NCBI GenBank assembly: GCA_012813795.1
Contig: GCA_012813795.1_4087.1
Reading direction: 5' to 3' (one strand)
DNA from: a phage
DNA: 64,000 nt
Below the pieces are notes generated by a model, which ran no database searches, was not told the DNA's origin, and saw only the letters and a list, made by a program, of their open reading frames with translations. The translations under genes and the position numbers were made by a program. Positions 18,236 through 54,078 of the stretch are shown one piece after another. Within the stretch, counting starts at the first letter, position 1. Each line of letters starts with the position of its first letter.

Positions 18236-20155
18236 TTAGTTTTGTTTCACCCCACCCCATTTTTCATAGATGGCAATAATTTTATCTATGTTGTTTGGTG
18301 TAGTTGTTTCAGTATACCCGTCTGGCATTTCTTGTTTAGTTAAAACACCTTTACCAAATCGTTTCTTACATTCTTTTTCAGCCTGTTTACAATCACCATC
18401 AGTATTAAAGAAGAATGTATGTGATGATACAACTTCAAATTTACAGCTTTTATTTTGGCTTTTATGTCGAGTACCTTTATTTTTTTCTATACCATATTTT
18501 ATTGCAATAGGGATGTCACCATCTTTAATTATATTAATATAAGCATATTGTTGGGTATATCCAACTTCATGTGAGTGTCCACTTTTACGGTCAACATGTG
18601 CATACGGTGTTGTAAAAAATTCACCATATTCGGGATGAATTATACACACATTAGTTGCTGTGTTAATATATTCTACTTTAGAATAATCATACAAATCACC
18701 ATGTACTTCTTTGGCTTTTTTAATGAAATCTTCTTTATTTTTAAATCGTAATCTACAGAATGGGTGTTGTCCCCCTTTTAAGTGGTGGTAAGGGGATGTG
18801 TGATATTCTCCATATTCTGGGTGGATAATACATACATGGTCATCAATACCAATATATTCTACTTTCGAATAATCATACAAATCACCATGTACTTCTTTGG
18901 CTTTTTTAATGAAATCTTCAGTGCACATTCGGGCTAAATCACTCCTTGATTTTACCCCACGAATTGGACAACCTTGCCCTGATAAATGAGATGATGGTGT
19001 TTGCCAAAATTCACCATACATAGGATCGATGATACATATTTTAGTATTACTGTTAATATATTCTACTTTCGAATAATCATACAAATCACCATGTACTTCT
19101 TTGGCTTTTTTAATGAAATCCAAAGTCGTTCCAGTCCTTTTGTTTTTTAATAATACTTTCGCACGTTTTGGATTATTGGCACCGTTTAAATGATTATTTG
19201 GTGTTTGCCAAAATTCACCATACATAGGATCGATGATACATATTTTAGTATTATTGTTAATATATTCTACTTTAGAATAATCATACAAATCACCATGTAC
19301 TTCTTTGGCTTTTTTAATGAAATCTTTTAATGTTAATTTTACATTTTTAGTTACAATATGCAAATTACATCCAGTTCTAGATAATAAATGATTAACAGGT
19401 GTAATTTCAAATTCACCATATTCATTATGAATCAATGTTACTTTTGTTCGGTAATCAACATAATTTATTTTTGAATAATCATATGTGTTTTTGAATTTCT
19501 CTTTAGATCTTTGTATAAATTCTTCTCTAGAAAGTTTTTGTTTTTCAGTTGTCTTTATTCTACCAGCTTTTGGATGTCCTTGTCCCTTCACATGACATTC
19601 TGGTGTTTGCTTAAATTCGCCAAATTCTGGATGAATTATTAAGACTTTAGTTTTGTAATCAACATAATTTATTTTTGAATAATCATATATGTTTCCATGT
19701 GTTTTTAATGCACGTTCTAAAAACATTTCCTTTGAAATTTTATTTTTTATATTTTTTTCTTTTAATTTATCCAAACCATGTTTTGGATGACCTACTCCGT
19801 TAAAATGATCTCCAACCAAAATCCAATGTTCACCATATACAGGATGAATGATACAAACTTTATTTTTGGAATTTACATAGTTTACTTTTGAATAATCATA
19901 CAAATCACCATGTACTTCACTAAATTTTTTCAATACACTTTCTTGTGTTAATTTTTTATTCTTCTTTCTGGATGGATTGTTTGAACCGTTCAAATGGTTA
20001 CCTGGAAGCATCCAAAATTCTTCATTACGTTCAATATCAATTATGCATATTTTTTGGGCGTGGTTTGTATATTCAACTTTAGAATAATCATACATGTCTC
20101 CATGTATTTTTTTAAATTCTGTAATAATACTTTCGGTTGACCACTTTTTACGCAT
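18236..20155 (-). CDS. tandem-repeat protein (8 repeats of about 55 aa, core HGDxYDYSKVxY...CIIHPxYGEF) with distinct C-terminal domain
   Basis: 639-aa ORF; repeats nearly identical at DNA level; function unknown. Confidence 0.7.
   Translation of the reverse strand: MRKKWSTESIITEFKKIHGDMYDYSKVEYTNHAQKICIIDIERNEEFWMLPGNHLNGSNNPSRKKNKKLTQESVLKKFSEVHGDLYDYSKVNYVNSKNKVCIIHPVYGEHWILVGDHFNGVGHPKHGLDKLKEKNIKNKISKEMFLERALKTHGNIYDYSKINYVDYKTKVLIIHPEFGEFKQTPECHVKGQGHPKAGRIKTTEKQKLSREEFIQRSKEKFKNTYDYSKINYVDYRTKVTLIHNEYGEFEITPVNHLLSRTGCNLHIVTKNVKLTLKDFIKKAKEVHGDLYDYSKVEYINNNTKICIIDPMYGEFWQTPNNHLNGANNPKRAKVLLKNKRTGTTLDFIKKAKEVHGDLYDYSKVEYINSNTKICIIDPMYGEFWQTPSSHLSGQGCPIRGVKSRSDLARMCTEDFIKKAKEVHGDLYDYSKVEYIGIDDHVCIIHPEYGEYHTSPYHHLKGGQHPFCRLRFKNKEDFIKKAKEVHGDLYDYSKVEYINTATNVCIIHPEYGEFFTTPYAHVDRKSGHSHEVGYTQQYAYINIIKDGDIPIAIKYGIEKNKGTRHKSQNKSCKFEVVSSHTFFFNTDGDCKQAEKECKKRFGKGVLTKQEMPDGYTETTTPNNIDKIIAIYEKWGGVKQN
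18640..20140 (-). repeat. intragenic tandem DNA repeats (about 165-bp units)
   Basis: ttctactttcgaataatcatacaaatcaccatgtacttctttggcttttttaatgaaatc recurs several times. Confidence 0.6.
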
Positions 20156-20384
20156 TACTTAAAACTCCTTTCCAGTACTGAACCCGTCCAGCACCATTAA
20201 TCTTAGCCTGAATCTTATCTTTTTCGACAAGACCTTCTTTGTAATCTATGGACGTATTATCGCACTGAATTACATCTAAGTCAAGTACTTCTTGTGTACT
20301 TAATGAAGTATTGTCTGCAATTTGTTGTAAAGTAATTATATCAGTACCGAAGAATTCTGCTAAACGTATAAAAGATAGTTTCAT
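20148..20384 (-). CDS. hypothetical protein
   Basis: 78 aa; GAGG RBS; downstream of module A2. Confidence 0.55.
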   Translation of the reverse strand: MKLSFIRLAEFFGTDIITLQQIADNTSLSTQEVLDLDVIQCDNTSIDYKEGLVEKDKIQAKINGAGRVQYWKGVLSNA

Positions 20385-20410
20385 GTATTACCTCTTGAGT
20401 TGATGAAATG

Positions 20411-20443
20411 ATTATAGCAAAAAGGGCTGACCGAAGTCAACCC
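20411..20443 (-). promoter_or_regulatory. family-A module (hairpin + TTGACT-N18-TATAAT)
   Basis: revcomp GGGTTGAC-ttcg-GTCAGCCC-tttttgc-TATAAT. Confidence 0.65.
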
Positions 20444-20449
20444 CTTATA

Positions 20450-20677
20450 TCATTTATTGTTGTATTCATACCAACACAGTTTAATATTATATACCAAATC
20501 CTCATAATCACTACATTGCACTATCCATGAATATTTTTCGTCAAATGTATATTTGGGTGAATTAATCATCCATCTTATAGATGCTTTTGTTTTATCAGGA
20601 TTAAATTTATACGTTTCGCGTGACTTGTATGAATCAAGCTTCGCAATCGCATATTTTTTGAATTCTTCATCATTCAT
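20450..20677 (-). CDS. hypothetical protein
   Basis: 75 aa; ATGA overlap with denV stop. Confidence 0.5.
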
Positions 20678-21111
20678 TGTATCATATCAACATAATATAT
20701 AGGTAGCTCAACATCAGTAAACTTATACCACTTAGACTTCATCTGAAGCTTCTCAATCAAACGCTCGCGTGATGTTTTAATCTCGGACTCCGATGGTACG
20801 TAGTCATTACAAAACTCAGCAGGGAAGCCGCTAATGTCGTTTACTTCAGTGTTTTGAATCTTCATACCACGACGCAAACATTCGTTAACAATATCAATAT
20901 GACGCTTCTGTAAGTACAGTAACTTGTCGTAGAAGAATGTTACATGACCTGAACCTAACAGATAAGTACTGTTAATTTTGAAATCACGTACACGCTTACG
21001 TGCTTGAACATGTTTTTGTACAGCACCAAATACACGTGGGAGTTCACGGTATTCAGCCATCAGGTGTTGGTCGGCAAGTTCGTTAACGTGTACTAAGTTA
21101 ATGCGTGTCAT
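20674..21111 (-). CDS. denV: pyrimidine-dimer DNA glycosylase (T4 endonuclease V family)
   Basis: N-terminus [31 protein letters not shown]...[10 protein letters not shown] recalled as near-identical to T4 EndoV incl. Thr2, Arg22, Glu23, Arg26; GAGGA RBS. Confidence 0.85.
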
Positions 21112-21139
21112 GTATTCATCCTCTCGTTTCGATGAAATG

Positions 21140-21172
21140 ATTATAGCAAAAAGGGCTGACCGAAGTCAACCC
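21140..21172 (-). promoter_or_regulatory. family-A module (hairpin + TTGACT-N18-TATAAT)
   Basis: same element as 20411..20443, upstream of denV. Confidence 0.65.
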
Positions 21173-21185
21173 AAATTTAACGAAT

Positions 21186-21752
21186 TTATTTAATGTGATT
21201 TGCAACATCTTTTGCAAGCTGAATTGATACATCATCCCAGGCTTTTTCCAAGATATATGTCAATGAATTTGCACCAATAGTTGGATCTTTTAGATAAGAT
21301 GTGTATGTATTCTCCCATACTTGTTCTTTATATGTAATACGCACTTTTAATGTTGCACCACCAACATCCATACCAGGAGTGATGTTAAAAATTCCAGCAC
21401 TGTATTCGAACTTACTTTTAGCATCAAGTACTTCAATAATAAGTGGTGTTCCATTTATGTTAAGTGTTGCGTATTGTGCAATTGCTTCTTCAACACGACT
21501 ACTGATTGCAACACCTGTTGGAATACGTGTACGCGATCCACCACCAACAAACCCAGAAGCACCTTGAATATCGATGCGACTAACAAATGTATTTGGTTCC
21601 CACACAATATTAACAGTTGGATTACCAACATCAACTGATTTCATTAATGTGACGTTTTTATAATCCAAACGATTATTAAATGGTAAATTTATAGTACATC
21701 CAGACAATATTGTAACAGTAGATAGTACTAAAATAATTAGTAGTTTTTTCAT
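21186..21752 (-). CDS. putative lipoprotein
   Basis: MKKLLIILVLSTVTILSGC signal peptide with lipobox. Confidence 0.65.
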   Translation of the reverse strand: MKKLLIILVLSTVTILSGCTINLPFNNRLDYKNVTLMKSVDVGNPTVNIVWEPNTFVSRIDIQGASGFVGGGSRTRIPTGVAISSRVEEAIAQYATLNINGTPLIIEVLDAKSKFEYSAGIFNITPGMDVGGATLKVRITYKEQVWENTYTSYLKDPTIGANSLTYILEKAWDDVSIQLAKDVANHIK

Positions 21753-21837
21753 TTCACATTATCCTCGTAAAATATATTAAATGGTAGTACATACTAATGT
21801 AACAAATGCAACGATTAAAACAATTTCCATAAACTTA

Positions 21838-22209
21838 TCAATCTCCATAATCAAGTTTAACTAACTTACCATTCAAATATCCAAAGTTTTCTGGCTTCGC
21901 ATCTGAATAGAAGAAGTCAGTACTTAACTCTGAATCCAATGCTAAAGCACACAACTCCACCCAAAATAAACCCCTATGTTGTACTGGCTTACAACGTTTC
22001 TGTACTGTTATTAAGCCAGTACGCGATGACCACAGAGTAGGACATATCCCACTGTCACTACGCTTGGAGTACTGCATCCATGAGCGTTCATTGAGGTTAG
22101 CTATCATTCCAGTTAGGAATAACTTCCAGCTTTTGAAGGTTGGAATCTTGATAGCATAATCCCCAATGAGGATAACTGTTCTTGTTGCACCTTTCAAATC
22201 TATATTCAT
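21838..22209 (-). CDS. truncated protein-kinase-like protein
   Basis: YAIKIP (beta3 Lys-like) and DAKPENFGYLNGKLVKLDYGD (catalytic loop + DFG-like) at kinase-like spacing; ORF ends right after DYG. Confidence 0.45.
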   Translation of the reverse strand: MNIDLKGATRTVILIGDYAIKIPTFKSWKLFLTGMIANLNERSWMQYSKRSDSGICPTLWSSRTGLITVQKRCKPVQHRGLFWVELCALALDSELSTDFFYSDAKPENFGYLNGKLVKLDYGD

Positions 22210-22219
22210 ATTTTTTTAA

Positions 22220-22471
22220 TTATAAGAACACAAACCAAGTCCAGAATAAATTCCACACTACAAATAAAGACATAGTGGTTTTATGTACAATATCAGCAGT
22301 ACTGGTCCATCCTCCACCGTGTCCTATTCCATTTATGAATAGAACTAAGAACAAGATACCATTTACTACAATAGTACATACTAAGTACACAAACACATTC
22401 CATGCAAGTTCAGGGGATACTAAAGTAAATGGTAAAACAATTAGTAGTATTAGAACTAATAATATTTTCAT
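22220..22471 (-). CDS. small membrane protein
   Basis: 83 aa hydrophobic; GTGAGG RBS. Confidence 0.55.
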   Translation of the reverse strand: MKILLVLILLIVLPFTLVSPELAWNVFVYLVCTIVVNGILFLVLFINGIGHGGGWTSTADIVHKTTMSLFVVWNLFWTWFVFL

Positions 22472-22510
22472 TTATCGCCTCACTTAATTAACGTGACATA
22501 TCACGTAATA

Positions 22511-22687
22511 TTAGTACGAATCAGATTCCCAGTACTCGATTGCTTCTTTCAGCAATTCGTTAGCACGTTGTTTTGCAACACGAGCGGGTAACTGATATGT
22601 GTACATTAACTGACGCTTTACTTCATTTAATGAACACTGTTCATGATATAGGGCATCCATCAGTCGATTGCGAGTACGTAGTTTCAT
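22511..22687 (-). CDS. hypothetical small protein (58 aa, below track cutoff)
   Basis: ATG with AAGGA RBS; no internal stops; fills gap between neighbours. Confidence 0.45.
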   Translation of the reverse strand: MKLRTRNRLMDALYHEQCSLNEVKRQLMYTYQLPARVAKQRANELLKEAIEYWESDSY

Positions 22688-22698
22688 ATAAGTTATCC

Positions 22699-23253
22699 TT
22701 ATTTCAAAGAATCATAGTAAGCAGTGTCAAAGATTGGAGTCATCATAACATAGTCAATACGGTCAATGTAAGTTGAACTCCACATTTCAGGTTTATCATA
22801 TAAATGACGTTCACGTTCATTTATAATAGTTAATACTTCTTCCAATTTACTACGTGAAGCCATCAAAGTATCACGGGAGCCATAAGTGAAGTACTCAGTC
22901 CATTGATATTCATATGCAGTATAGATGGATTGAATAGTTCCATCTTTGAAATGAGCTAAGGCATAACCTTTCTCTACAAAGTTATCAGGTGGAAGAACTT
23001 CATCTGGATTAGTTGTTAGTGCTTCTGCTAACTTTTCTTTAATTTCAGTTAACGTGCACACTGAACGAATGTTCTTCAGGTTTGATACTTGAAAATCACT
23101 GTACTTCCCAAAGAAAAAGACACGCCAATCTTTAGGTTCATTATCAGATACTGTAGCATTAGGATGATGGGCGAGTAAACGAAGAAGGCCAGCTTTGTGA
23201 CCGTTAATGTAGATTTCATGGATGTGGTTGGCAGTTTTCTTAAAAGTAATCAT
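22699..23253 (-). CDS. hypothetical protein
   Basis: 184 aa; downstream of promoter 23301..23328. Confidence 0.6.
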   Translation of the reverse strand: MITFKKTANHIHEIYINGHKAGLLRLLAHHPNATVSDNEPKDWRVFFFGKYSDFQVSNLKNIRSVCTLTEIKEKLAEALTTNPDEVLPPDNFVEKGYALAHFKDGTIQSIYTAYEYQWTEYFTYGSRDTLMASRSKLEEVLTIINERERHLYDKPEMWSSTYIDRIDYVMMTPIFDTAYYDSLK

Positions 23254-23300
23254 GGTAGTTCCTCGATTGTAGGGATGAGAAGTTCATCCCCTTGATAAAC

Positions 23301-23328
23301 ATTATACAGTACTAGTTGAGTTTGTCAA
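23301..23328 (-). promoter_or_regulatory. family-B promoter TTGACA-N16-(CAGTACTG)TATAAT
   Basis: revcomp of tgtcaa 23323-23328 and attata 23301-23306; GC hairpin in 5' leader. Confidence 0.6.
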
Positions 23329-23338
23329 ATACTTTTCA

Positions 23339-23677
23339 TCAACGCTCTGGTAATTTGTCTCGGAGTTTCTCAAGTTTCATAATCAAAGAGAAGAGTCCCC
23401 ACGCGAAAAACCAAACTACAGTCCCAAAAACAACAAAGAATGTTGATAGTGTGCACATCATTCCACCAGTACTTTGGATACCAGTTAGCAGTACTTCACC
23501 CACTGCCATAGTTAAGAATACAAATGCGAAGAAGTGAATTGGTGCATCATCCCAATAGCGTTTGTAGAATGTATTGTATCGGAAGAATAATAAAATATAC
23601 CCAAGCATATAGTACATCCATCCGATACCCGATAAAACAAACGATATCATGTTTAATTCATACATATAATCATTCAT
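23339..23677 (-). CDS. small membrane protein (start uncertain)
   Basis: hydrophobic; several in-frame Met near upstream stop. Confidence 0.5.
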   Translation of the reverse strand: MNDYMYELNMISFVLSGIGWMYYMLGYILLFFRYNTFYKRYWDDAPIHFFAFVFLTMAVGEVLLTGIQSTGGMMCTLSTFFVVFGTVVWFFAWGLFSLIMKLEKLRDKLPER

Positions 23678-23930
23678 TATCAGGTTCATCACAGTTCATA
23701 AGAGCGTTACGGGCAATCCTTGCGGATTGTGCCAGGGACAATACACTCTCCAGTGTAGCAACACTGTAAGAGTTAGATCCAATGGTAATCAGAAGAGATT
23801 GTGAATTATCAACGTCAATATAACCAACTTCAACGCGTTGTGGAGGACCATCGTTCAGTACATAGTTAGTGTCATGTTCAACACGAGCAAGACGGATTTG
23901 TGTAAACATTTTCAATTCAGGGTTTTGCAT
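23670..23930 (-). CDS. hypothetical protein
   Basis: 86 aa. Confidence 0.5.
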   Translation of the reverse strand: MQNPELKMFTQIRLARVEHDTNYVLNDGPPQRVEVGYIDVDNSQSLLITIGSNSYSVATLESVLSLAQSARIARNALMNCDEPDNE

Positions 23931-23943
23931 TAGATATCTCCAG

Positions 23944-24219
23944 TTATAAAAGTTCTAAGAATAATTTATTACATGCATCTTTATGTTTCAAATAATATAG
24001 ATAATAAAGATTCGGTTCACCGTTCTTCGATGAAAGATCAAAGTAATTTAAATTTCGAACATGAACCATAAAGCAAATTAATTCTTTTGCACCAACCTCC
24101 CCATACTTCACGATAAGTTCATCTAAGTGGATGTAACTTTTAGAGTCTTTCAGTTCTTCAATATCACTTAAAATTTCTTCATAACGCATTGAGCCAACTA
24201 AACGTTCGTATGTGTTCAT
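23944..24219 (-). CDS. hypothetical protein
   Basis: 91 aa; AAAGGAG RBS; downstream of module A4. Confidence 0.6.
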   Translation of the reverse strand: MNTYERLVGSMRYEEILSDIEELKDSKSYIHLDELIVKYGEVGAKELICFMVHVRNLNYFDLSSKNGEPNLYYLYYLKHKDACNKLFLELL

Positions 24220-24247
24220 AGAGTTTCTCCTTTTAGGTTATGAGAGT

Positions 24248-24280
24248 ATTATAGCAAAAAAGGCTGACCGAAGTCAACCT
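24248..24280 (-). promoter_or_regulatory. family-A module (hairpin + TTGACT-N18-TATAAT)
   Basis: revcomp AGGTTGAC-ttcg-GTCAGCCT-tttttgc-TATAAT. Confidence 0.65.
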
Positions 24281-24288
24281 CTTTTTTA

Positions 24289-25839
24289 TCATTTACCGTA
24301 CTTGTGCATGATATCCTTTTCCCAATCAGTTACGTTACCATTTTCGTAATCCTGGAAAGAGTTATCAAGCGTGTTCAATGCGTACTCATATGCTTCTGGT
24401 GAATCGATATCAACATCGTCTGCACCATTCACTAGGTCGTTCCATGCCTTTTGTAGTTTACGGGCATTGTTATCAACCTTATGTTTAATCCAACTAATAT
24501 TGCTGTTAATGCTCTTAGGATCTGCACCAGCTTTCTTGCCAATTTCAGCAATCCACATCATTAGCTTTTGTAGTTCATGAATTGACTTATCAGTCATTTT
24601 ACGACCTTTAGCCAATTCAGCGTCCATTTCTGAAGTGTTTGCTTCACCATTAGAACCAACATTAATACCATTTTTAGCAAGAAGTTTACCTAGTTCAAAG
24701 AATGCTGCTTCTGCTGGGAAATCATATCCTTTGTCTTGGTAGTTGTTCCATGCACTATCAAACTCATCTACAAAACTATTTGCATATTGTGGATTATCGA
24801 CTAATGCTTTGTACACAGCCATAGCATGTTCAAAACCTTCTTTGTCTGAACCAAATTCTTGCATATCAGGACGATGAATGTAACCATCCATATCAACTGT
24901 ATCCGGTAAATCACCATAGTCTGGTTCAGCGTCCTTCTGGTCAACAGCACCTTCTTCATCTTTGCGAAGGAGATATCCATCAGGAGTTACTTTCTCACCG
25001 TGTTCAGCTTCATACTTCTTCATTGCACCGAATACTGCATTCATTGCAGTAATGAAGCGAGATTTCTCACCAGGTTTATATGATTCTAATGCTTTCTTCA
25101 ACGCATCTGCTGCAAGTTTAATCTTTTCATCTTTACCTTCAAGACGATTTTGTAACTTAGCTTGTACATTCTTAACTTGTTGTGCATTAGTCTTATCTTC
25201 TGCACCAATTTTTCCAAATGTAGAAACGATTGAGTCAAGATTTGCTACTTCTTGTGCAGGTTCATCAAACTCAATATCATCATCAGCCTGTGGCTTACCT
25301 TCAAGTGCACGCATGATAGTACTGAATACTTCAACAGGATTATTGCTACTATTACCTTCCATACTATCAAGAACAGCTTGTGCTTTATCTTTGAGTTGTT
25401 CTTTAGGAACCGCTTGAAGTGCTTTTACGATACCTTGAATTAGTTGTGGTTTGTTAGCAAAGATCTTCCCAAGTTTATCACTTAACTCTTTGACAGGGTT
25501 AGCAGCTTTAGGTTGTGCAGGGGCTTCTGGTGCTGCTTTAGGTTGTTCTTGTGCATTATCCAGTGCAGCCAATTGTTGCTTCTGCTGTGGGTTCAAAAGG
25601 CCAAGACTGTTGAAGTACTTCAATTTTTCATACTGGGACATGTTTGAAGTATCAAGACCCTGTGATGCAACTGTGTTTGCTTTCCCAGCTTCTCCCGTTC
25701 CTTGGTTGCGAGAACCACGGGAACCTTGACCTGCGTCATGACTTGATTGGCGGCGATTTTTTTCAGCCCATTTCTCCGAATGTCCAGAAAGTGTTGCCCC
25801 ACTTTTTGATTTAAAATTATCTGGCATTTTTTTCTCCAT
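24289..25839 (-). CDS. large acidic/Lys-rich hypothetical protein (516 aa)
   Basis: long ORF; GGAG RBS; low-complexity Q/K/A/E-rich N-terminal half. Confidence 0.65.
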   Translation of the reverse strand: MEKKMPDNFKSKSGATLSGHSEKWAEKNRRQSSHDAGQGSRGSRNQGTGEAGKANTVASQGLDTSNMSQYEKLKYFNSLGLLNPQQKQQLAALDNAQEQPKAAPEAPAQPKAANPVKELSDKLGKIFANKPQLIQGIVKALQAVPKEQLKDKAQAVLDSMEGNSSNNPVEVFSTIMRALEGKPQADDDIEFDEPAQEVANLDSIVSTFGKIGAEDKTNAQQVKNVQAKLQNRLEGKDEKIKLAADALKKALESYKPGEKSRFITAMNAVFGAMKKYEAEHGEKVTPDGYLLRKDEEGAVDQKDAEPDYGDLPDTVDMDGYIHRPDMQEFGSDKEGFEHAMAVYKALVDNPQYANSFVDEFDSAWNNYQDKGYDFPAEAAFFELGKLLAKNGINVGSNGEANTSEMDAELAKGRKMTDKSIHELQKLMMWIAEIGKKAGADPKSINSNISWIKHKVDNNARKLQKAWNDLVNGADDVDIDSPEAYEYALNTLDNSFQDYENGNVTDWEKDIMHKYGK

Positions 25840-25873
25840 AGATTATTAAATGTTACCTCTATGTCATATTTAT

Positions 25874-25906
25874 AGAATAGCAAAAAGGGTCAACAAAAGT
25901 CAACCC
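25874..25906 (-). promoter_or_regulatory. family-A module variant (hairpin + TTGACT, weak -10 TATTCT)
   Basis: GGGTTGAC-tttt-GTTGACCC then tttttgctattct. Confidence 0.5.
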
Positions 25907-25910
25907 TTTT

Positions 25911-26138
25911 TTAATATGAAGTATTGTTCAAGAATGTAACTTTTGCACACGATATCTCAAATGACATATAACGTGTCATATCTCGAAATTCATTTTCTAT
26001 GCATTGTAACAGTACTTCAACTTCATTTTCACCAATGTAATACTCATCTCTGACGAATATCTCACTGGTGTATTTCTCACTACTAATACTTTTCTCTCTT
26101 ACGTTAAGTAGGTATTCAATTTTATACCTTTTCATCAC
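25911..26138 (-). CDS. hypothetical protein
   Basis: 75 aa; ATGA overlap. Confidence 0.5.
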   Translation of the reverse strand: MMKRYKIEYLLNVREKSISSEKYTSEIFVRDEYYIGENEVEVLLQCIENEFRDMTRYMSFEISCAKVTFLNNTSY

Positions 26139-26566
26139 AACTCCGATGAGAATATAAATCCTTTCATATCCTCTTTAGTTAGGGAAAGTTCTGGAATGTA
26201 CTTTAAAATAATGCACTTAGGTTTAGCTAATGCAGCTTGCAGTACTGAATCAACTAAAGGACGCAGTACATCTGCACTGTAGTTCTTATTCTCAATGTTG
26301 AATATCTTATTCTTCACATCTGCACCTGGTAGCTTATTGATACCTTCAAAGATCTTATGCATTACATCTTCTTCAGTACTGATATATGCCCATGCAGGTA
26401 ATGGTAGGCACTCAATTACCTGACCGAGTTCATCCATAACTGCAATACTGCGAACACAGGCAGAACTCATGAACAAACGCCCACGAACAAAGGTATCAGT
26501 TTCCAGATTAACAAATGCAAAGATATCGATTTCATTAAGTTCAGTACTATTAACGTTAACCCACAT
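26135..26566 (-). CDS. hypothetical protein
   Basis: 143 aa. Confidence 0.55.
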   Translation of the reverse strand: MWVNVNSTELNEIDIFAFVNLETDTFVRGRLFMSSACVRSIAVMDELGQVIECLPLPAWAYISTEEDVMHKIFEGINKLPGADVKNKIFNIENKNYSADVLRPLVDSVLQAALAKPKCIILKYIPELSLTKEDMKGFIFSSEL

Positions 26567-26577
26567 ATTTTTTCCTG

Positions 26578-27156
26578 TTATAGATCACGGACAATATTCA
26601 TCAAACAAGTCTTAGGTTTGATACATTTGAAGAAGTACACCATCGTCTTATATTGTTTAATTATATCATCCAAATTTGGCGTTAGCAAGCTTTCTTGAAA
26701 ATATTCTTCTTCGCTCAAGTTTGGGAGGTCTTTCACGTCACAATTCAACTCAATAATATTAGAACTTGTGGTATACTCATCGATAGTTTTAAGTTGAACA
26801 ATCTCCCACTCAAATATACCAGCACTCAATGTACCGATAATACGAATACGTTCCGGCTTATCAGATGCATCTCTGCAATAGATACGTATAAACCCAGTAC
26901 CGTATCGTCTGTAATCATCTATCGTAATGTCCAGACCATCGTATACGAAGGATACTGAAATAATATTTTCAGTTGGATGTGCATCTTTCCCTGTACTATT
27001 GTTAGTACTTATATATCTAATATCAATCTTGTTAGATACTATCTTTCTACTCAGGGCAGAAAGTTTATTGTGTGCTTTGATAAAACCTAAGCATATATCA
27101 TTGAACCTTCCACTTTTATTCTTCTTTGATACTTTAAACTTACCTTTACGGTTCAT
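26578..27156 (-). CDS. EExYFQ-motif family protein
   Basis: 192 aa with EEEYFQES; -10 of module A6 only 8 nt from ATG (possibly leaderless). Confidence 0.55.
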   Translation of the reverse strand: MNRKGKFKVSKKNKSGRFNDICLGFIKAHNKLSALSRKIVSNKIDIRYISTNNSTGKDAHPTENIISVSFVYDGLDITIDDYRRYGTGFIRIYCRDASDKPERIRIIGTLSAGIFEWEIVQLKTIDEYTTSSNIIELNCDVKDLPNLSEEEYFQESLLTPNLDDIIKQYKTMVYFFKCIKPKTCLMNIVRDL

Positions 27157-27164
27157 AAGTCACC

Positions 27165-27195
27165 ATTATACAAAAGGGCTGACTTATGTCAACCC
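27165..27195 (-). promoter_or_regulatory. family-A module (hairpin + TTGACA-N17-TATAAT)
   Basis: revcomp GGGTTGAC-ataa-GTCAGCCC-ttttg-TATAAT. Confidence 0.6.
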
Positions 27196-27201
27196 CGTAG
27201 T

Positions 27202-27426
27202 TTAATATCTTTTTACTTCACATGGTACATATGGTTTGTACAAAATGATTATATCATTCACAAGGAAAATCACTGTTCCTCTATCATTGTGTATTGCCAT
27301 CTTAACCGACTTACCCTGATATGTCTCTGTGTAGCCACCGCTAACGTTTGTACACTTCACAAAGTACTTGATTCTGGCTTGTACTATTGTGCTCACAAAC
27401 ATTAATGCCACCAGCATGTATTTCAT
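27202..27426 (-). CDS. small secreted protein (signal peptide)
   Basis: MKYMLVALMFVSTIVQA signal-like N-terminus. Confidence 0.5.
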   Translation of the reverse strand: MKYMLVALMFVSTIVQARIKYFVKCTNVSGGYTETYQGKSVKMAIHNDRGTVIFLVNDIIILYKPYVPCEVKRY

Positions 27427-27447
27427 TTACTCGTGTCCATCAGACTA

Positions 27448-27711
27448 TTAGAATTGAATAGCAATACCTTTAGATGTAATTTCAAACGTACAGTTGTAGC
27501 GAGCCGCCATATCAATATACATATGTTCAGAATACCACGGAACGTTGATATCCGGTTGATTATCATATACCAGGCAGTCATTGTCACCAATGTGCTCGAC
27601 TTTAAATGGGACACCCATTTCAGTTAAAAACAACTCAGCACCTGGTGTGCGACGAAGGAACTCCACATCATCACGCAGACGAAAACCATGATAGTTCAAT
27701 TTCAGTTTCAT
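27448..27711 (-). CDS. hypothetical protein
   Basis: 87 aa. Confidence 0.5.
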   Translation of the reverse strand: MKLKLNYHGFRLRDDVEFLRRTPGAELFLTEMGVPFKVEHIGDNDCLVYDNQPDINVPWYSEHMYIDMAARYNCTFEITSKGIAIQF

Positions 27712-28068
27712 TTAATCCCCTATTGAATAGTTGTTCATTTGTGCAATTATGTTCATTATAACACAAATAACGTACAAGTCGAACTTTATTTTGTTGTGAT
27801 TAATTACACTATTATCGGGTACATACCCAACACACTCCACTGTGTATTCAAGGAATGATAGTTCAGAATCATCTGAATCTATATCTGCCTTAATGAAGTA
27901 CTTTAAATGTGGATGTGTATTAGTGTATGAACTTAAAATCTGTTGGAACTTGTTTCGTAGTTCACGAGTTAACTTTATGTAATCTTCATCGTCACGTTGG
28001 TCGAAATACGGATCTTGTGGTATCTCATAACTCAAGAACTTTGCAAATCGTGTTGATGTTTTATTCAT
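27712..28068 (-). CDS. hypothetical protein
   Basis: start moved to Met12 just after upstream stop. Confidence 0.5.
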   Translation of the reverse strand: MNKTSTRFAKFLSYEIPQDPYFDQRDDEDYIKLTRELRNKFQQILSSYTNTHPHLKYFIKADIDSDDSELSFLEYTVECVGYVPDNSVINHNKIKFDLYVICVIMNIIAQMNNYSIGD

Positions 28069-28501
28069 ATGCCATCTCTTCCTTATTAAATCTTGTAGCA
28101 CGAAATTCTTCTTTAGCTTCCTTTACTGACATAATACGAAGTAGTTTTGCACTACCATAATAGTACTGCACTTGGTTATGTCCAATGTCTACATGGTTAT
28201 CTGGAACTTCATACACAAAAACAGAAAATCCTGAACGATGAAGTTTACCTAAGTCCATTGTAAAGAATCTGAACAGGTCGTTTAAACTTTGGCATCCAAA
28301 TGCCCAGCCACGCTTTATAGAATAAATTCCATCGTCGGTGGGTTCTGGTTGAAATTGTGTAGGTGTGGTCATACACAAACGTTCAAATCCATTTTTAGTA
28401 CTGTATCGCGAAGAGTACCGTGCGAACGGTCCTACTGTTTTTGCAGGATCTAAGTTAGGTTCAATATAACTGAATTTAAGTTCAAAACGATATACATACA
28501 T
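28061..28501 (-). CDS. hypothetical protein
   Basis: 146 aa; downstream of module A7. Confidence 0.6.
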   Translation of the reverse strand: MYVYRFELKFSYIEPNLDPAKTVGPFARYSSRYSTKNGFERLCMTTPTQFQPEPTDDGIYSIKRGWAFGCQSLNDLFRFFTMDLGKLHRSGFSVFVYEVPDNHVDIGHNQVQYYYGSAKLLRIMSVKEAKEEFRATRFNKEEMAYE

Positions 28502-28530
28502 AATTAAAATCCCCAGTAGTAGATGAAATG

Positions 28531-28563
28531 ATTATAACAAAAAAGGCTGACCGAAGTCAACCT
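28531..28563 (-). promoter_or_regulatory. family-A module (hairpin + TTGACT-N18-TATAAT)
   Basis: revcomp AGGTTGAC-ttcg-GTCAGCCT-tttttgt-TATAAT. Confidence 0.65.
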
Positions 28564-28763
28564 TTATTTTGAAGTTCTTGAACTAATTGTCGTACTTCTT
28601 TGATGTTACGACACTGCTTTACAGTGAAGTAATCATACTTACGACCATAGGTTCTTGGGTCATCACCTTCCATATACTGCTGCACATCAAAGATTTGTAA
28701 GTAGGGATGCTGTATAACACGAATGTTATCACATTGATAAATCAACATATGTTTAGTCCTCAT
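28557..28763 (-). CDS. hypothetical protein
   Basis: start moved to Met6 ATG (track start is GTG). Confidence 0.5.
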   Translation of the reverse strand: MRTKHMLIYQCDNIRVIQHPYLQIFDVQQYMEGDDPRTYGRKYDYFTVKQCRNIKEVRQLVQELQNKG

Positions 28764-28887
28764 ATTTACACAAGCCACCGAATGTTGCCTGTTTTGCTGC
28801 CTTACGCATCATCACAAGTTTAACATACTGTTCGCCATTACTTTCTTCATATACATCAACTTGAAGAAATGCAAGCATATTGGGATC

Positions 28888-28920
28888 AGTATAACAAAAA
28901 AGGCTGACGTTAGTCAACCT
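28888..28920 (-). promoter_or_regulatory. family-A module variant (hairpin + TTGACT-N18-TATACT)
   Basis: AGGTTGAC-taac-GTCAGCCT then ttttttgttatactg. Confidence 0.5.
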
Positions 28921-28927
28921 TTTTTAA

Positions 28928-35481: not shown

Positions 35482-36276
35482 TTAAATTACATAGGGTTTA
35501 TAGTAATGAATCTCATTTGCTATTGCAGTGAAAACTTTCTTATTAAATCTTTCACCATAATCACGAAGTGATTCACCTTCTACGCTTTCAATAAAGTAAT
35601 TATATACTGGTAGTCGTGCACTGTCAATACCTATAAACGATTTCATGTAAATTTGTACTAAACGATTCATACCTGAATTTAAACATTCAACATCAAAGTG
35701 CTTGATACCTTTGTCTAAGTGCTTGAATGCATTGATGATACCACGCTTGAAATCACGCTCCATAGTACTGAATAGATTCTCAGGAAACACTGTAATCGGA
35801 GACATGGATTTAAGAATGTATGTATCTTTTGCATTCTTGATGTACTCAATGAAGCAGTAGTTTACATTAGGCTCAATTGAACGGTCTGCATTATGATACC
35901 AGTACTTAAACTCGCTGTACTCTGCGAACTTATGCTGGCGTAAGGCATTACAATCCTCACACAGTGCAGTCATGTTCTCTTTATCATTACCACCCTGAAG
36001 ACAGTCAAGTACATTATGGTCTAACGTCATGCGTACAAGGCGTTTCCCTTTAAGTACATAAGGTCTGAATTTATAACGGTCTTTAGTACTGTGCTTATGT
36101 AAAGTGAATACTACATTGGATTCACCACAACAATCACATTTAAAGCCGTCACGAGACATTACATGAATGAGTTTGCGAGTATTAGGTCCAAACTCAGATT
36201 TAGTAATATTATCCACAATTTCTGATGGTTGGTAATATTTTGAATTCAGTCGAATCAATTCATCGATAGTACTCAT
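35482..36276 (-). CDS. HNH endonuclease
   Basis: CDCCGES...TLDHNVLDCLQGGNDKENMTALCEDCN (His/Asn/Cys HNH pattern); start moved to Met7 (GAGGA RBS). Confidence 0.7.
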   Translation of the reverse strand: MSTIDELIRLNSKYYQPSEIVDNITKSEFGPNTRKLIHVMSRDGFKCDCCGESNVVFTLHKHSTKDRYKFRPYVLKGKRLVRMTLDHNVLDCLQGGNDKENMTALCEDCNALRQHKFAEYSEFKYWYHNADRSIEPNVNYCFIEYIKNAKDTYILKSMSPITVFPENLFSTMERDFKRGIINAFKHLDKGIKHFDVECLNSGMNRLVQIYMKSFIGIDSARLPVYNYFIESVEGESLRDYGERFNKKVFTAIANEIHYYKPYVI

Positions 36277-36277
36277 T

Positions 36278-36502
36278 TTAGATTTCCTCTTCACTGCATT
36301 CGGTGATTACTTTTTTAACCTCTATAACTCTTACTAAATGATACCCGCACCTATGGTTGAAATTAAACATGTTTACTAATGCATCAGCTTCTGTTTTTGC
36401 CCTAAATTGGAGATTATATATGTGCATAGTTTCATCGAGTGAGGCTTCACCTTTGCTATTGAAAACAATTTTACAAACTTCAAACCTTACTCGATAAATC
36501 AT
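36278..36502 (-). CDS. hypothetical protein
   Basis: 74 aa. Confidence 0.5.
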   Translation of the reverse strand: MIYRVRFEVCKIVFNSKGEASLDETMHIYNLQFRAKTEADALVNMFNFNHRCGYHLVRVIEVKKVITECSEEEI

Positions 36503-36708
36503 TGAGTTTGTCCTACAATAAATTTCGCTTTAATATCACTTTTGTAACACCACATTTGTTCTTCACTAACTGTCATCCAAGAATTTTTGTTTACTTGTTC
36601 GTATGTACTATCACGTACAGAAAAACATTGGTTTAATGAATTCATAGGGGTAATTTGTACACCGGATTGCATTGAAAGAGCAACAATTAAAAAGATTGTA
36701 GTATTCAT
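36499..36708 (-). CDS. small secreted/membrane protein
   Basis: 69 aa, hydrophobic N-terminus. Confidence 0.5.
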   Translation of the reverse strand: MNTTIFLIVALSMQSGVQITPMNSLNQCFSVRDSTYEQVNKNSWMTVSEEQMWCYKSDIKAKFIVGQTQ

Positions 36709-37332
36709 TGAATGTTCCTTAATAGTTAGTCATCCATCTCTTCGAGATGTCTGTTCGCTTCTAATACTACGTATTCTACGCGAATGATTAATAACTGTCA
36801 AGGACTTTTAATATTGACGGGATTTGAGGAAGGGATTTTTCTTCCCCCCGCTGGGAGGGGAATTTGACGCTGATGGTATCAGAGCTATTGCATTGAAGAT
36901 TACTCTTAATGAGTACGAAAGCGGGTCATCCTGTTTCTCTCTACTTCAGTTTCATATGACGGTCTACACTTTTAAACATAGTGTATCTTCATTAAGTATC
37001 TATGCAATCAAATACTTAATGTGAGTACTCAAATTTTGGACGCAACTTTCCTGTACAAAATTTGATAACTCTCCCTTAGATAATTCGTAAGGTGTTATCC
37101 TTATATGTCTATCTAGGAACCACCAGCCATCCTAACGTGGTTCTTTATAGTGCCGCATTGCCGTGAGGGGTTCATAATATGCCCACATCTGACGGGTTTC
37201 TTCTGCACTTCGCACTGCTGGACTGCTCAACTGCCCTCTACATTTTCGAGTGGATCAGGTTCATGTCATCCATGCCAACAGAATTGTACAATATCATTGT
37301 ATCATGAACATCCATTTTGTCCCATAAAAAAA

Positions 37333-37357
37333 GGGCTGACCTAAGTCAACCCTTTTT
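37333..37357 (-). terminator. family-A hairpin without -10 (terminator after sigma-factor gene)
   Basis: revcomp GGGTTGAC-ttag-GTCAGCCC-ttttttt; no TATAAT follows. Confidence 0.6.
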
Positions 37358-37359
37358 CT

Positions 37360-38322
37360 TTAGAAATCTTCGTATTCGTACCCTTTTTCAAGTACTATTT
37401 TTTTAAGCTTTTGAATAGCTTCACTATATTTTCGGTGCACAGATGAACGGGACTTAACAATGTTTCCTTTATCATCAACATATCCATTATCAGAAATTTC
37501 ACGAAGGGTTTCTGCTTTGTAATCCCCAAGACCATGAACACGCATGATAATTTCTCGTTCTTTAGTACTCAATTCGTCAATGATTTCTGTGATTGCATAA
37601 CGTAATGGATTACAAATGCTATCAACATTAAGGTTATAATCACGAGCAGATGAACTCAGAATATCCCCAAGGGTTCCGTCTGAATCTGAACCCAGTTGTG
37701 CATCAAGAGTCGTATATGCATTCTGGTATAACAAACAGTTCTTAACGTGCTGAAGCTCGATACCAGTACTCTCAGAGATTAATTCTGGTGTTGGTCGCTT
37801 ACCGTGTTCACGTTGATATGATTCATTAAATCGACGTACTTGGATGTTATGAACGCTCATATAACGTGGTAAGTACACCATGTAATTTGCATCTGAACTT
37901 TCATTATACATAGTCATATAAACGGACGTTGTTGCATATGTAATGAATTTGACATTCTTACTAAGATCAAAGGTTTTAAGTGCTCGCATAAAACCTTCTA
38001 CGCCATATGCAATTTTATCTTCAAACGGAATATAACATGTACACTTTGAAGCAACGTCAACAATCATACCATAGTTGTAACGAAGTAATAGGTCAGTATT
38101 CTTTTTTACATTAATCCCAGCACGAATCTCTTCTATGATAGATTCATTAGTTACACCTGCTGGACGTTTAATACTGATATTACTTTTACTACGAACTTTA
38201 TGTGGAATATCATCTTCAATAACTTCTGATGGTTCAATTGCTTCCAATGGATTGACTTCTTCATTCGCAAAACATTCATCCAGTACTTCTTCGGAAATTG
38301 CGTTTAAGTCTAGTTTCTTCAC
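37360..38322 (-). CDS. RNA polymerase sigma factor, sigma-70 family
   Basis: region-2-like GVEGFMRALKTFDLSKNVKFITYATTSVYMTM and region-4-like LSTKEREIIMRVHGL...TLREIS; GTG start 6 nt after AGGAG. Confidence 0.75.
   Translation of the reverse strand: MKKLDLNAISEEVLDECFANEEVNPLEAIEPSEVIEDDIPHKVRSKSNISIKRPAGVTNESIIEEIRAGINVKKNTDLLLRYNYGMIVDVASKCTCYIPFEDKIAYGVEGFMRALKTFDLSKNVKFITYATTSVYMTMYNESSDANYMVYLPRYMSVHNIQVRRFNESYQREHGKRPTPELISESTGIELQHVKNCLLYQNAYTTLDAQLGSDSDGTLGDILSSSARDYNLNVDSICNPLRYAITEIIDELSTKEREIIMRVHGLGDYKAETLREISDNGYVDDKGNIVKSRSSVHRKYSEAIQKLKKIVLEKGYEYEDF

Positions 38323-52437: not shown

Positions 52438-54078
<1,641 letters not shown>

What the first reader, a model, noticed from the sequence alone, without database searches (positions are those of the whole stretch)
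36709..37359. 650-bp ORF-free, GC-richer island downstream of the sigma-factor gene: candidate structured RNA
Between the sigma gene stop (37360) and the next - strand gene start (36708) there is no credible ORF on either strand. Base composition shifts toward GC (runs such as cttccccccgctgggagggg) and there are several stable inverted repeats (GGAACCAC-n13-GTGGTTCC near 37117-37145; GGAAG-n8-CTTCC near 36826-36843). Nearly every other stretch of this block is coding, so a retained 650-bp noncoding segment is likely functional (sRNA, ribozyme or intron remnant, replication or packaging site).
Basis: seen in the sequence. Interest (0 to 1): 0.6.

Follow-up and report, generated by a model that had tools for sequence, protein, structure and literature searches.

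The report
Multi-copy structured RNA module, jumbo phage
The "empty" 650 bp after the sigma-factor gene holds one of four regularly spaced copies of an undescribed, intricately folded RNA of about 450 nt that is conserved across the Rak2-like giant phages and also sits in small bacterial defence islands, so it is probably a working part of the phage (most likely tied to genome replication), not junk.

Summary
Window 36709-37359 has no credible ORF, is GC-richer (0.40 vs 0.35) and carries a real hairpin.

The window is an Asteriusvirus jumbo phage, 99.8% identical to Escherichia phage A4 here. The gap holds a self-contained unit on the MINUS strand:
- its own promoter (GGGACA-16-TGaTACAAT);
- a roughly 430-480 nt RNA with at least 13 covarying helices and three pseudoknots;
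- a highly conserved G-rich block flanked by two direct repeats that co-vary by identity.

No Rfam family matches, and deposited genomes leave it unannotated.

A4 carries four diverged copies and related genera carry five. All copies in a genome are co-oriented and 50-115 kb apart. On 63 distinct copies, 93% of cells pair, 54 of 69 pairs show compensatory changes, and no coding signal appears.

The same module, and nothing else from the phage, also sits near the end of ~9-kb low-GC integrative defence islands in Enterobacter, Serratia, Phytobacter, Silvania and E. coli.

That this is a new structured-RNA family is well supported. Its function is inferred: most likely a cis-acting, origin-associated RNA, with a trans-acting RNA as the main rival.

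The parts
37325..37356 (-). Intrinsic terminator of the sigma-factor gene. On the minus strand it reads GGGUUGAC-UUAG-GUCAGCCC followed by U7. The same hairpin motif recurs elsewhere in the window.
   Evidence: Read from the sequence. Only terminator-type sRNA models brush it, all below threshold. The motif repeats at 18-29 kb.
37296..37323 (-). Promoter of the RNA: a -35-like GGGACA (37323-37318), a 16-nt spacer, and an extended -10 TGaTACAAT (37304-37296). The predicted start is near 37289.
   Evidence: Promoter scan. The equivalent TGAAACG/GGGACAA ... TGnTATAAT is seen upstream of the other copies, and TGnTAnnnT occurs in 44 of 63 5' flanks. It matches the 'divergent RpoD-like' promoter class described for phage CBB (PMC5259590). 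The start site is inferred, not mapped.
36864..37289 (-). Structured RNA core, about 426 nt. Helices in window coordinates:
- P2: 37275-37281 with 37215-37222, which lies in the loop of Pa (37224-37226/37212-37214). This is pseudoknot A.
- P3 hairpin: 37262-37274.
- P4: 37249-37255/37232-37238.
- Pb: 37205-37209/37149-37153.
- Pc: 37117-37123/37137-37143.
- Invariant AAGGGAG: 37071-37077.
- P6: 37068-37071/37023-37026.
- Pd: 37012-37021/36990-36999.
- PK1: the Pd loop 37002-37008 with 36887-36893.
- Pe: 36956-36960/36925-36929, which crosses Pf (36944-36948/36894-36898) and Pg (36937-36941/36917-36921).
- Ph: 36912-36914/36902-36904.
   Evidence: RNAalifold on both strands. Strand-neutral and strand-specific helix searches. 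Pair counts on 63 copies. P2 and P3 covariation read directly from the flanks.
36864..36874 (-). Repeat R1 (AUCAGCGUCAA), at the 3' edge of the RNA core. In about half of the other copies an intrinsic terminator follows it directly; this copy has none.
   Evidence: Alignment. A hairpin plus T-run lies between R1 and the G-run in 32 of 59 copies. Identity covariation with R2.
36814..36860 (-). G-block. It contains the hairpin CCCC..GGGG with an invariant G-run (plus-strand C6 at 36844-36849), then AAGAAAAAUCCCUUCCUCAA, ending in repeat R2 (AUCCCGUCAA, 36814-36823). This is the most conserved stretch of the whole unit.
   Evidence: Invariant columns. The hairpin's C side varies only C to U, which is G.U in the minus sense. 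R1 and R2 co-vary at five positions, with one exception among 70 sequences. No complementary partner lies within 700 nt.
36773..36801 (-). Sigma-70-type promoter (TTGACA-17-TAGAAT) for the next minus-strand gene, which starts at 36708. It marks the downstream edge of the unit.
   Evidence: Promoter scan, 11 of 12 positions matched. Analogous TTGACA-type promoters follow other copies.

Best explanation
SHOWN. The gap is one copy of a previously undescribed noncoding module. Rak2-like jumbo phages carry it 4-5 times, always co-oriented and 50-115 kb apart. Each module has its own phage-type promoter, a roughly 430-480 nt RNA read from the window's minus strand that folds into a multi-domain structure with three pseudoknots, often an intrinsic terminator, and then a near-invariant G-rich block bracketed by two short direct repeats that are kept identical to each other.

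INFERRED. The module most likely works in cis as a replication-origin-associated RNA. Transcription from the promoter would make a folded pre-primer or activator RNA. Its 3' repeat (R1) has the same sequence as the downstream repeat (R2), so it could anneal to the template strand there and start leading-strand synthesis in the direction of transcription. Several such starts would split the 350-kb genome into a few co-directional replicons.

INFERRED. Small integrative defence islands of Enterobacterales carry one copy of just this module. This would let them be switched on or amplified when such a phage infects.
For: Structured RNA:
- 63 distinct copies, median 64% identity.
- 93.2% of cells paired, against 71.5% in shuffles and 36-46% when partners are slid.
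- 54 of 69 pairs have changes on both sides; 853 double-change cells against 229; covariation score 0.523 against 0.172.
- PK1 is 99.7% paired, with 7 of 7 pairs covarying.

Strand:
- G.U cells outnumber A.C cells 188 to 39 in the minus sense.
- RNAalifold gives -45.1 (minus) against -34.7 (plus).
- A conserved extended -10 promoter lies 5' and terminators lie 3' in the minus sense.

Not coding.

Cis-acting or origin reading:
- All copies in a genome are co-oriented and evenly spread. Serratia phage BF has them at 30/93/175/259/336 kb, and GAP32, CBB and Yen9-04 are nearly identical. A4 has them at 65/126/206/321 kb.
- Five orthologous paralog groups are kept at syntenic positions across genera.
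- The promoter belongs to the class found near DNA-synthesis genes in CBB.
- T4 relatives start replication from R-loops made at origin promoters, with the RNA priming synthesis in one direction (PMC3016281).
- R1 and R2 co-vary by identity, copy by copy, even within one genome, and no complementary RNA partner exists.
- The islands share only this module with the phages and keep its whole structure. This is how satellites copy the cis elements of their helpers.
Against: - No experiment bears on replication.
- GC skew shows nothing at the copies; it simply follows gene strand.
- A tightly folded RNA would resist forming an R-loop.
- In about half of the copies a terminator precedes the G-block.
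- T4 origins have no conserved RNA fold.
- The module is absent from 72,556 plasmids, so it is not an autonomous ColE1-like origin.
- Single-sequence folding energy is unremarkable: z = -1.57 for the minus strand and -2.44 for the plus strand.
- The helices were chosen on the same alignments used to count them, although both controls are far away from the observed values.
Confidence: 0.4

Rival explanations
1. A trans-acting large structured RNA, for example an RNP scaffold, a ribozyme, or a decoy or anti-defence RNA, made from several paralogous genes. The islands would carry a copy to mimic or compete with it, or to use it themselves.
For: - The fold is elaborate: three pseudoknots.
- A sub-module (ACAAUAUAGAUCCGUCCAAAAU) occupies different insertion points in different paralogs. 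This kind of module swapping is typical of large folded RNAs such as RNase P (general knowledge).
- The unit has its own promoter and, in many copies, its own terminator.
- Large phage-borne RNAs of unknown function exist, such as GOLLD and ROOL (10.1101/2024.12.08.627333, listed).
Against: - Even spacing, strict co-orientation and syntenic retention of five diverged paralogs are not expected for a diffusible product.
- It does not explain the conserved block downstream of the terminator or the R1=R2 identity.
- No protein partner is shared between the phages and the islands.
Confidence: 0.33
2. A cis-regulatory transcription element: a long leader, an insulator, or an infection sensor. In the phage it would control the genes downstream. 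In the islands, phage-driven transcription would run antisense into the CI-like repressor gene and switch the island on.
For: - Each copy is followed by a sigma-70-type promoter and genes.
- In the islands the RNA converges on the CI-like repressor gene.
- The c2-type copies have a hairpin plus U-run right after the promoter, which looks like an attenuator.
Against: - The c3-type copy points against its neighbouring genes.
- Downstream genes have their own promoter.
- A sensor would need only the promoter, not a 450-nt covarying fold.
Confidence: 0.12
3. A DNA-level packaging, partition or recombination site that satellites copy in order to be handled by the phage machinery. The direct repeats would be crossover or recognition cores.
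For: - Satellites commonly copy helper cos or pac sites (general knowledge).
- Jumbo-phage satellites exist (PMC12595487).
- Identity between partner sites is a requirement of site-specific recombination cores (general knowledge), and R1=R2 fits that.
- ParB-like genes lie next to the element in the Serratia fonticola island.
Against: - Covariation preserves base pairing with a G.U bias, which points to a single-stranded RNA and not to a duplex site.
- R1 and R2 are only about 45-95 bp apart.
- Five internal pac sites do not fit the defined terminal repeats reported for CBB.
Confidence: 0.08
4. A decayed gene, an intron remnant or a selfish repeat with no function.
For: Some depositors small 'hypothetical proteins' here. 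HNH endonuclease genes lie near some copies.
Against: - No three-base periodicity, indels are not multiples of 3, and stop-free stretches are close to shuffled sequence (median 76 vs 63 aa).
- The core is more conserved than the flanking genes.
- Positions are syntenic across genera.
- The flanking genes are intact.
Confidence: 0.02

Closest known systems
Bacteriophage T4 R-loop origins, oriF and oriG (PMC3016281)
   Same: Both are in T4-related myoviruses. There are several origins per genome. [quoted passage not shown] The promoter here is of a non-canonical '-35' class linked to DNA-synthesis genes.
   Different: T4 origins share no sequence or RNA fold with one another. Here a 430-480 nt covarying, pseudoknotted RNA and a conserved G-block with twin repeats are the defining parts. 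Origin activity has not been tested.
ColE1/pMB1 RNA II pre-primer (general knowledge)
   Same: A structured RNA of about 500 nt from its own promoter, whose folding decides whether its 3' part hybridises with the template at the origin. No element-encoded initiator protein is needed.
   Different: No sequence relation. No antisense RNA I counterpart was identified. The module is not found on any of 72,556 plasmids. It is multi-copy within one genome.
Large phage-associated RNAs GOLLD and ROOL (Rfam; 10.1101/2024.12.08.627333)
   Same: Large, ornate noncoding RNAs carried by phages, with strong covariation and unknown function.
   Different: No Rfam model matches any of the 11 copies scanned. 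This one is not next to tRNA genes, and it has several evenly spaced paralogs per genome plus a conserved DNA block outside the RNA.
RNA-seq-defined ncRNAs of the related jumbo phage PA5oct (PMC7318152)
   Same: Four transcribed ORF-free regions of 236-619 nt in a phage of the same broad clade. Two are highly expressed throughout infection.
   Different: ncRNA002, the 451-nt one, shows no profile similarity to this family. The other three were not tested.
Satellite-helper sharing of cis elements, such as the P4/P2 cos site (general knowledge), and jumbo-phage satellites (PMC12595487)
   Same: Small integrase-bearing islands without structural genes that share only one short noncoding segment with a lytic phage. 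Their cargo is defence genes.
   Different: The shared segment here encodes a folded RNA. Mobilisation or induction of these Enterobacterales islands by Rak2-like phages has not been shown. The published jumbo satellites are 40-55 kb Pseudomonas elements, and no RNA is mentioned for them.

Membership tests
Any Rfam 15 family (including GOLLD, ROOL, OLE, HEARO, group I/II introns, RNase P, tmRNA, 6S) | A covariance-model score at or above the family's gathering threshold | tested here: not met
   Whole window: only 5 tRNAs, at 51-55 kb. Region 36400-37600 at E<=10: only sub-threshold chance or terminator hits. Ten further copies from phages and islands: nothing apart from ffs in an E. coli flank. 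ARAGORN finds no tmRNA.
Group I or group II intron (or remnant) | It interrupts a gene, with exon continuity across the element | tested here: not met
   It lies between a complete sigma-factor gene with its own terminator and a complete downstream ORF with its own promoter. All paralogs are intergenic.
Protein-coding gene | A conserved reading frame, three-base periodicity of substitutions, and indels in multiples of 3 | tested here: not met
   Variability by phase is 0.239/0.259/0.226. Only 17% of gap runs are multiples of 3. The longest stop-free stretch is close to shuffled sequence (median 76 vs 63 aa).
T4-type R-loop replication origin | Several origins per genome | tested here: met
   There are 4-5 co-oriented copies in every complete genome with a full set detected, and only 2 in RaK2.
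T4-type R-loop replication origin | A phage middle-type promoter directly upstream, with an easily unwound AT-rich stretch downstream | tested here: inconclusive
   The promoter class matches CBB's TGAAACG/-10 class, but its timing and activator are unknown. AT-rich DNA follows the G-block, yet about 430 nt of folded RNA lie in between.
T4-type R-loop replication origin | The transcript forms a persistent RNA-DNA hybrid and primes DNA synthesis | not testable with these tools
   This needs marker-frequency, DRIP or 2D-gel data. GC skew is uninformative.
ColE1-type RNA-primed origin | It serves as an autonomous origin on plasmids | tested here: not met
   The island copy has no match in 72,556 PLSDB plasmids.
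Phage satellite (island context only) | An integrative island with an integrase and regulators but no virion genes, sharing a cis element with a helper phage | tested here: met
   Gene content of L107-L110 and L176-L180. Only the module matches jumbo phages. The module is confirmed in the islands by nhmmer at E = 1e-82 to 1e-125.
Phage satellite (island context only) | Induction, replication or packaging that depends on the helper phage | not testable with these tools
   This needs infection experiments.

The most novel reading that the evidence does not exclude
A new kind of replication-start module. A pseudoknotted RNA made in situ, together with a twin-repeat 'prime-and-realign' site, defines 4-5 evenly spaced, co-directional origins in giant phage genomes. 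A widespread family of ~9-kb Enterobacterales defence islands has copied this one module to become a satellite, or an infection-triggered amplicon, of Rak2-like jumbo phages.
Probability: 0.25. Interest if true: 0.9.

Novelty: new variant of a known kind. Interest (0 to 1): 0.8.

Why it matters
Rak2-like phages (121Q, PBECO4, RaK2, GAP32, CBB and others) are being developed for therapy, yet most of their genome is unexplained, and nothing was found here about how a 350-kb genome starts replication.

A large, strongly covarying RNA with three pseudoknots is rare in any system. Finding one that is conserved from Escherichia phages to Xanthomonas phages, in a fixed number of evenly spaced co-oriented copies, gives a concrete and testable handle on genome replication or organisation.

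The same module is the only thing these phages share with small defence-carrying islands in Enterobacter, Serratia, Phytobacter, Silvania and E. coli. This points to a second, RNA-linked route by which mobile islands may plug into jumbo-phage infection. It also gives a simple marker for finding such islands.

Tried and rejected
- **Rfam at permissive thresholds**: nothing.
- **Repeats inside the window**: only the terminator hairpin recurs. The paralogs lie outside the window and needed the whole A4 genome.
- **PA5oct ncRNA002 as a homolog**: no profile hit.
- **GC-skew test for origins**: skew tracks gene strand only.
- **Single-sequence folding energy to pick the strand**: not decisive, and the plus strand is even slightly lower. 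The strand was set from the G.U/A.C ratio, the promoter and the terminators instead.
- **A small peptide in the G-block (GGGGGG-AUG...)**: rejected. This copy has no AUG, and 1-nt indels shift the frame among copies (read).
- **The ACGAAGTGA loop motif as a genome-wide promoter element**: not enriched.
- **A protein partner shared by islands and phage**: none, only a DUF4326 cargo gene.
- **A sequence complementary to R1/R2 within 700 nt**: none at a consistent position.
- **Plasmids**: no match.
- **HNH genes near copies**: their positions are inconsistent, so judged coincidental.
- **Helix 5** was entered one base out of register. The correct columns are 217-220/277-280, and this helix is nearly invariant anyway.
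- **The 2023 catalogue of >10,000 viral RNA candidates (PMC10690425)** could not be checked for this motif.

Full report
**What the window is.** The region and its flanks are 99.8% identical to Escherichia phage A4, an Asteriusvirus jumbo myovirus of 355 kb. They are 81-87% identical to 121Q, PBECO4, phAPEC6 and other relatives. The window carries five tRNA genes at 51-55 kb.

**Checking the observation.**
- Between the sigma-factor gene (37360-38322, minus strand) and the next minus-strand ORF (36499-36708) there are only short chance ORFs.
- GC is 0.401 against 0.347 for the window, the 98.7th percentile of equal-sized windows.
- The hairpin near 37117-37143 is real and conserved. The one near 36826-36843 is specific to this copy.
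- No Rfam family reaches threshold, and even at E<=10 only terminator-like sRNA models touch the sigma terminator.

**Conservation and copy number.**
- A query limited to the gap finds 71 phage records. All are Rak2-like jumbo phages of Escherichia, Klebsiella, Salmonella, Erwinia, Yersinia, Serratia, Pectobacterium, Cronobacter and Xanthomonas.
- Identity is 94% within Asteriusvirus, higher than when the coding flanks are included. It is about 70% in other genera.
- There are 3-5 places per genome in most of these records (a single short match in the RaK2-group Klebsiella phages), and usually no annotated feature under the match.
- I fetched the A4 genome and found four copies:
  - c1, this gap, at about 321 kb;
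  - c2, at 65.2-65.6 kb;
  - c4, at 125.8-126.3 kb;
  - c3, at 205.6-206.1 kb.
- All four have the same orientation, each sits in a 650-900 bp ORF-free gap, and they are roughly 70-80% identical to this copy.

**Collecting copies.**
- Three motif scans of IMG/VR gave 78 profile hits, of which 63 were distinct and full-length. These form 44 clusters at 90% identity, with median pairwise identity 64% and minimum 50%.
- One very specific 30-nt pattern then found 65 metagenome loci and 4 loci in GTDB bacterial genomes. All were confirmed by nhmmer.
- In the BF/CBB/GAP32/Yen9-04/XbC2 clade the copies fall into five orthologous groups with one member per genome. The paralogs are therefore ancient and each has been retained.

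**It is an RNA, on the minus strand.**
- RNAalifold finds heavy covariation on either strand, as expected. It is better on the minus strand: -45.1 against -34.7 kcal/mol.
- A strand-neutral helix search followed by strand-specific ones shows that helices are complete only in the minus sense.
- Over the final 69 pairs there are 188 G.U cells in the minus sense, against 39 A.C cells, which would be the G.U cells of the plus sense.
- A conserved promoter lies just 5' in the minus sense. Here it is GGGACA-16-TGaTACAAT at 37323-37296. Other copies have TGAAACG or GGGACAA followed by TGnTATAAT.
- This promoter matches the second promoter class described for phage CBB: a -35 of TGAAACG with a normal -10, found near DNA-synthesis genes (PMC5259590).
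- In 32 of 59 copies a canonical hairpin plus U-run follows the RNA in the minus sense.
- Single-sequence folding energies do not discriminate between the strands.

**Structure.** On the 63-sequence alignment A3, my 14-helix model gave these results:

| Measure | Observed | Shuffled | Partners slid |
|---|---|---|---|
| Cells paired | 93.2% | 71.5% | 36-46% |
| Double-change cells | 853 | 229 | 61-118 |
| Covariation score | 0.523 | 0.172 | below 0.1 |

- 54 of 69 pairs have changes on both sides. None of the 500 shuffles reached the observed value on any of the five measures.
- There are three pseudoknots:
  - The 5' strand CUGUUGG pairs with the loop of hairpin Pa. This helix is 7-8 bp and covaries as CUGAUUGA/UCAAUCAG, CUGAAAGG/CCUUUCAG and GUGUGG/CCACAC.
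  - The loop of the long hairpin Pd pairs with a strand about 110 nt downstream (PK1). It is 99.7% paired, with 7 of 7 pairs covarying.
  - Pe crosses Pf and Pg.
- A 22-nt sub-module sits at different insertion points in different paralog types.
- There is no coding signal.

**Features outside the fold.**
- After the RNA core comes repeat R1 (AUCAGCGUCAA), then the optional terminator.
- Next is the most conserved block of the unit, CCCC-UGC-GGGGGG-AUGAAAAUGCCUCAACAA, ending in repeat R2 (AUCCCGUCAA).
- R1 and R2 co-vary by identity at five positions, copy by copy, even between paralogs of one genome. Examples are ATC against ACC, CGUCA against UGUCA, CUUCA and CGACA, with one exception in 70 sequences.
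- No complementary sequence exists within 700 nt.
- Identity, as opposed to complementarity, fits one model well: the RNA's R1 could pair with the template DNA strand at R2. Sites that must match each other would also fit. This part is inference.

**Genome architecture.** In every complete genome all copies lie on one strand and are evenly spread.

| Genome | Copy positions (kb) |
|---|---|
| Serratia phage BF | 30 / 93 / 175 / 259 / 336 |
| GAP32 | 35 / 99 / 178 / 262 / 341 |
| CBB | 33 / 95 / 175 / 258 / 337 |
| Yersinia phage fHe-Yen9-04 | 25 / 94 / 175 / 261 / 335 |
| 121Q | 91 / 193 / 248 / 327 |
| A4 | 65 / 126 / 206 / 321 |

For five random points on a 357-kb circle, a smallest gap of at least 51 kb has a probability of about 0.007. 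This is my own arithmetic. Because these genomes are syntenic, it counts as one observation, not several.

**An unexpected second home.**
- The four GTDB hits are bacterial:
  - Serratia fonticola GTA-SR07, on a complete chromosome;
  - Serratia sp. 2723;
  - Silvania hatchlandensis;
  - an Enterobacteriaceae MAG.
- In S. fonticola only the module matches jumbo phages. Its flanks are the chromosomal genes rof and tilS.
- Every bacterial copy examined lies 0.5-2 kb from a boundary of a low-GC (30-38%) segment in a 55-60% GC genome.
- Neighbours are a large serine recombinase or tyrosine integrase, two ParB-like proteins in S. fonticola, and a CI-like S24 repressor.
- Following that repressor family gave ~9-kb islands in Enterobacter and Phytobacter. 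Their order is:
  - integrase;
  - the module, convergent with the repressor gene;
  - a CI-like/HTH_35 divergent pair;
  - three small core genes;
  - variable defence cargo (nSTAND/Avs-type NTPases, TIR, GmrSD, DUF4238).
- nhmmer confirms the module in these islands at E = 1e-82 to 1e-87.
- Two of 5,426 complete E. coli genomes have such an island. The one examined lies next to ffs, and PGAP annotates nothing over the element.
- Island copies form their own clade. Their nearest phage relative (82% for the Enterobacter copies) is the c3-type copy of an uncultured jumbo phage. They keep every helix, with fresh compensatory changes.
- No island core protein has a relative in the phage, and the module is absent from 72,556 plasmids.
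- Jumbo-phage satellites were recently shown to exist in Pseudomonas (PMC12595487), but no RNA was described there.

**Interpretation.**
- That this is a new, real, structured RNA family is well supported; I put it above 0.9.
- Its function is not shown.
- The cis-type evidence makes an origin-associated RNA the best single reading. That evidence is the even spacing, co-orientation, syntenic retention of diverged paralogs, a conserved DNA block beyond the terminator, twin identical repeats, a promoter of the DNA-synthesis class, and capture of just this module by integrative islands.
- The known precedents are T4's R-loop origins (PMC3016281) and ColE1 RNA II.
- The elaborate fold and the module swapping keep a trans-acting RNA as a close rival.
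- Regulatory, packaging or recombination roles are less likely, and a junk or coding origin is excluded.

**Caveats.**
- The alignments are from MAFFT, not structure-guided, so some helices (Pd, P2, P4) are under-counted.
- The helices were chosen on the same data used for counting.
- The transcription start and end are predicted, not mapped.
- The copies counted are related by descent.

Noticed in passing
L176-L180 and L107-L110 (bacterial loci); for example L179 3882-13370: A family of ~9-kb low-GC integrative islands in Enterobacter, Phytobacter, Serratia, Silvania and E. coli. They have a conserved core (integrase, the RNA module, a CI-like S24 repressor paired with HTH_35, a 286-aa protein, LprI, a small resolvase) and swappable defence cargo (nSTAND/Avs, TIR, GmrSD, DUF4238). 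They may be satellites of Rak2-like jumbo phages.
   Followed up: partly
window 36814-36874 (R1 at 36864-36874, R2 at 36814-36823): Two 10-11 nt direct repeats bracket the G-rich block and are kept identical to each other, copy by copy, at five variable positions. No complementary partner lies nearby.
   Followed up: partly
window 18200-28925 and 37325-37356: The same bidirectional terminator hairpin (AAAAAGGGCTGACCTAAGTCAACCCTTTTT and close variants) recurs at least ten times in the window.
   Followed up: no
window 35482-36294 (minus strand): A 270-aa ORF with an HNH-like motif (CDCCG...LDHN...CEDCN) lies two genes downstream of the element. The A4 record annotates three short ORFs over the same stretch, so either the gene is broken there or the calls differ.
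   Followed up: no
downstream of many copies, e.g. L010 ~1060-1200, L013 ~950-1120, L110 3560-3680: Hairpins whose stems vary while the loop stays conserved (ACGAAGUGA or ACGAACGUAGUGA). They sit in AT-rich DNA just upstream of a TTGACA-type promoter. The motif is not enriched genome-wide.
   Followed up: partly
c2-type copies: L005 ~15650-15720, L039, L026, L016: In one paralog type a hairpin plus a U7-U10 run sits immediately after the promoter, before the conserved RNA. It looks like an attenuator or a very short transcript.
   Followed up: no
window 52972-53063: ARAGORN calls a tRNA-Ser with anticodon ACT, which is unusual for bacterial-type tRNA sets. It lies in the phage tRNA cluster.
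   Followed up: no
window 1-~3300: Joining the window to the A4 record gives 358,817 bases against a record length of 355,528, and the far end does not wrap onto the start of the A4 record. The window therefore comes from a close relative of A4, or from a differently delimited genome, and not from this exact record.
   Followed up: no
L013, L024, L040 (Klebsiella phage RaK2): Only two copies were detected in RaK2, and they are the most divergent ones (they lack the domain between Pb2 and the Pb closing strand). Either further copies have diverged beyond the profile or the copy number is genuinely lower.
   Followed up: no
L180 11997-12590 versus A4 109188-109502: A DUF4326 cargo gene of the E. 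coli island has a 42%-identical relative in phage A4. It is the only protein-level link found between the islands and the phage.
   Followed up: no
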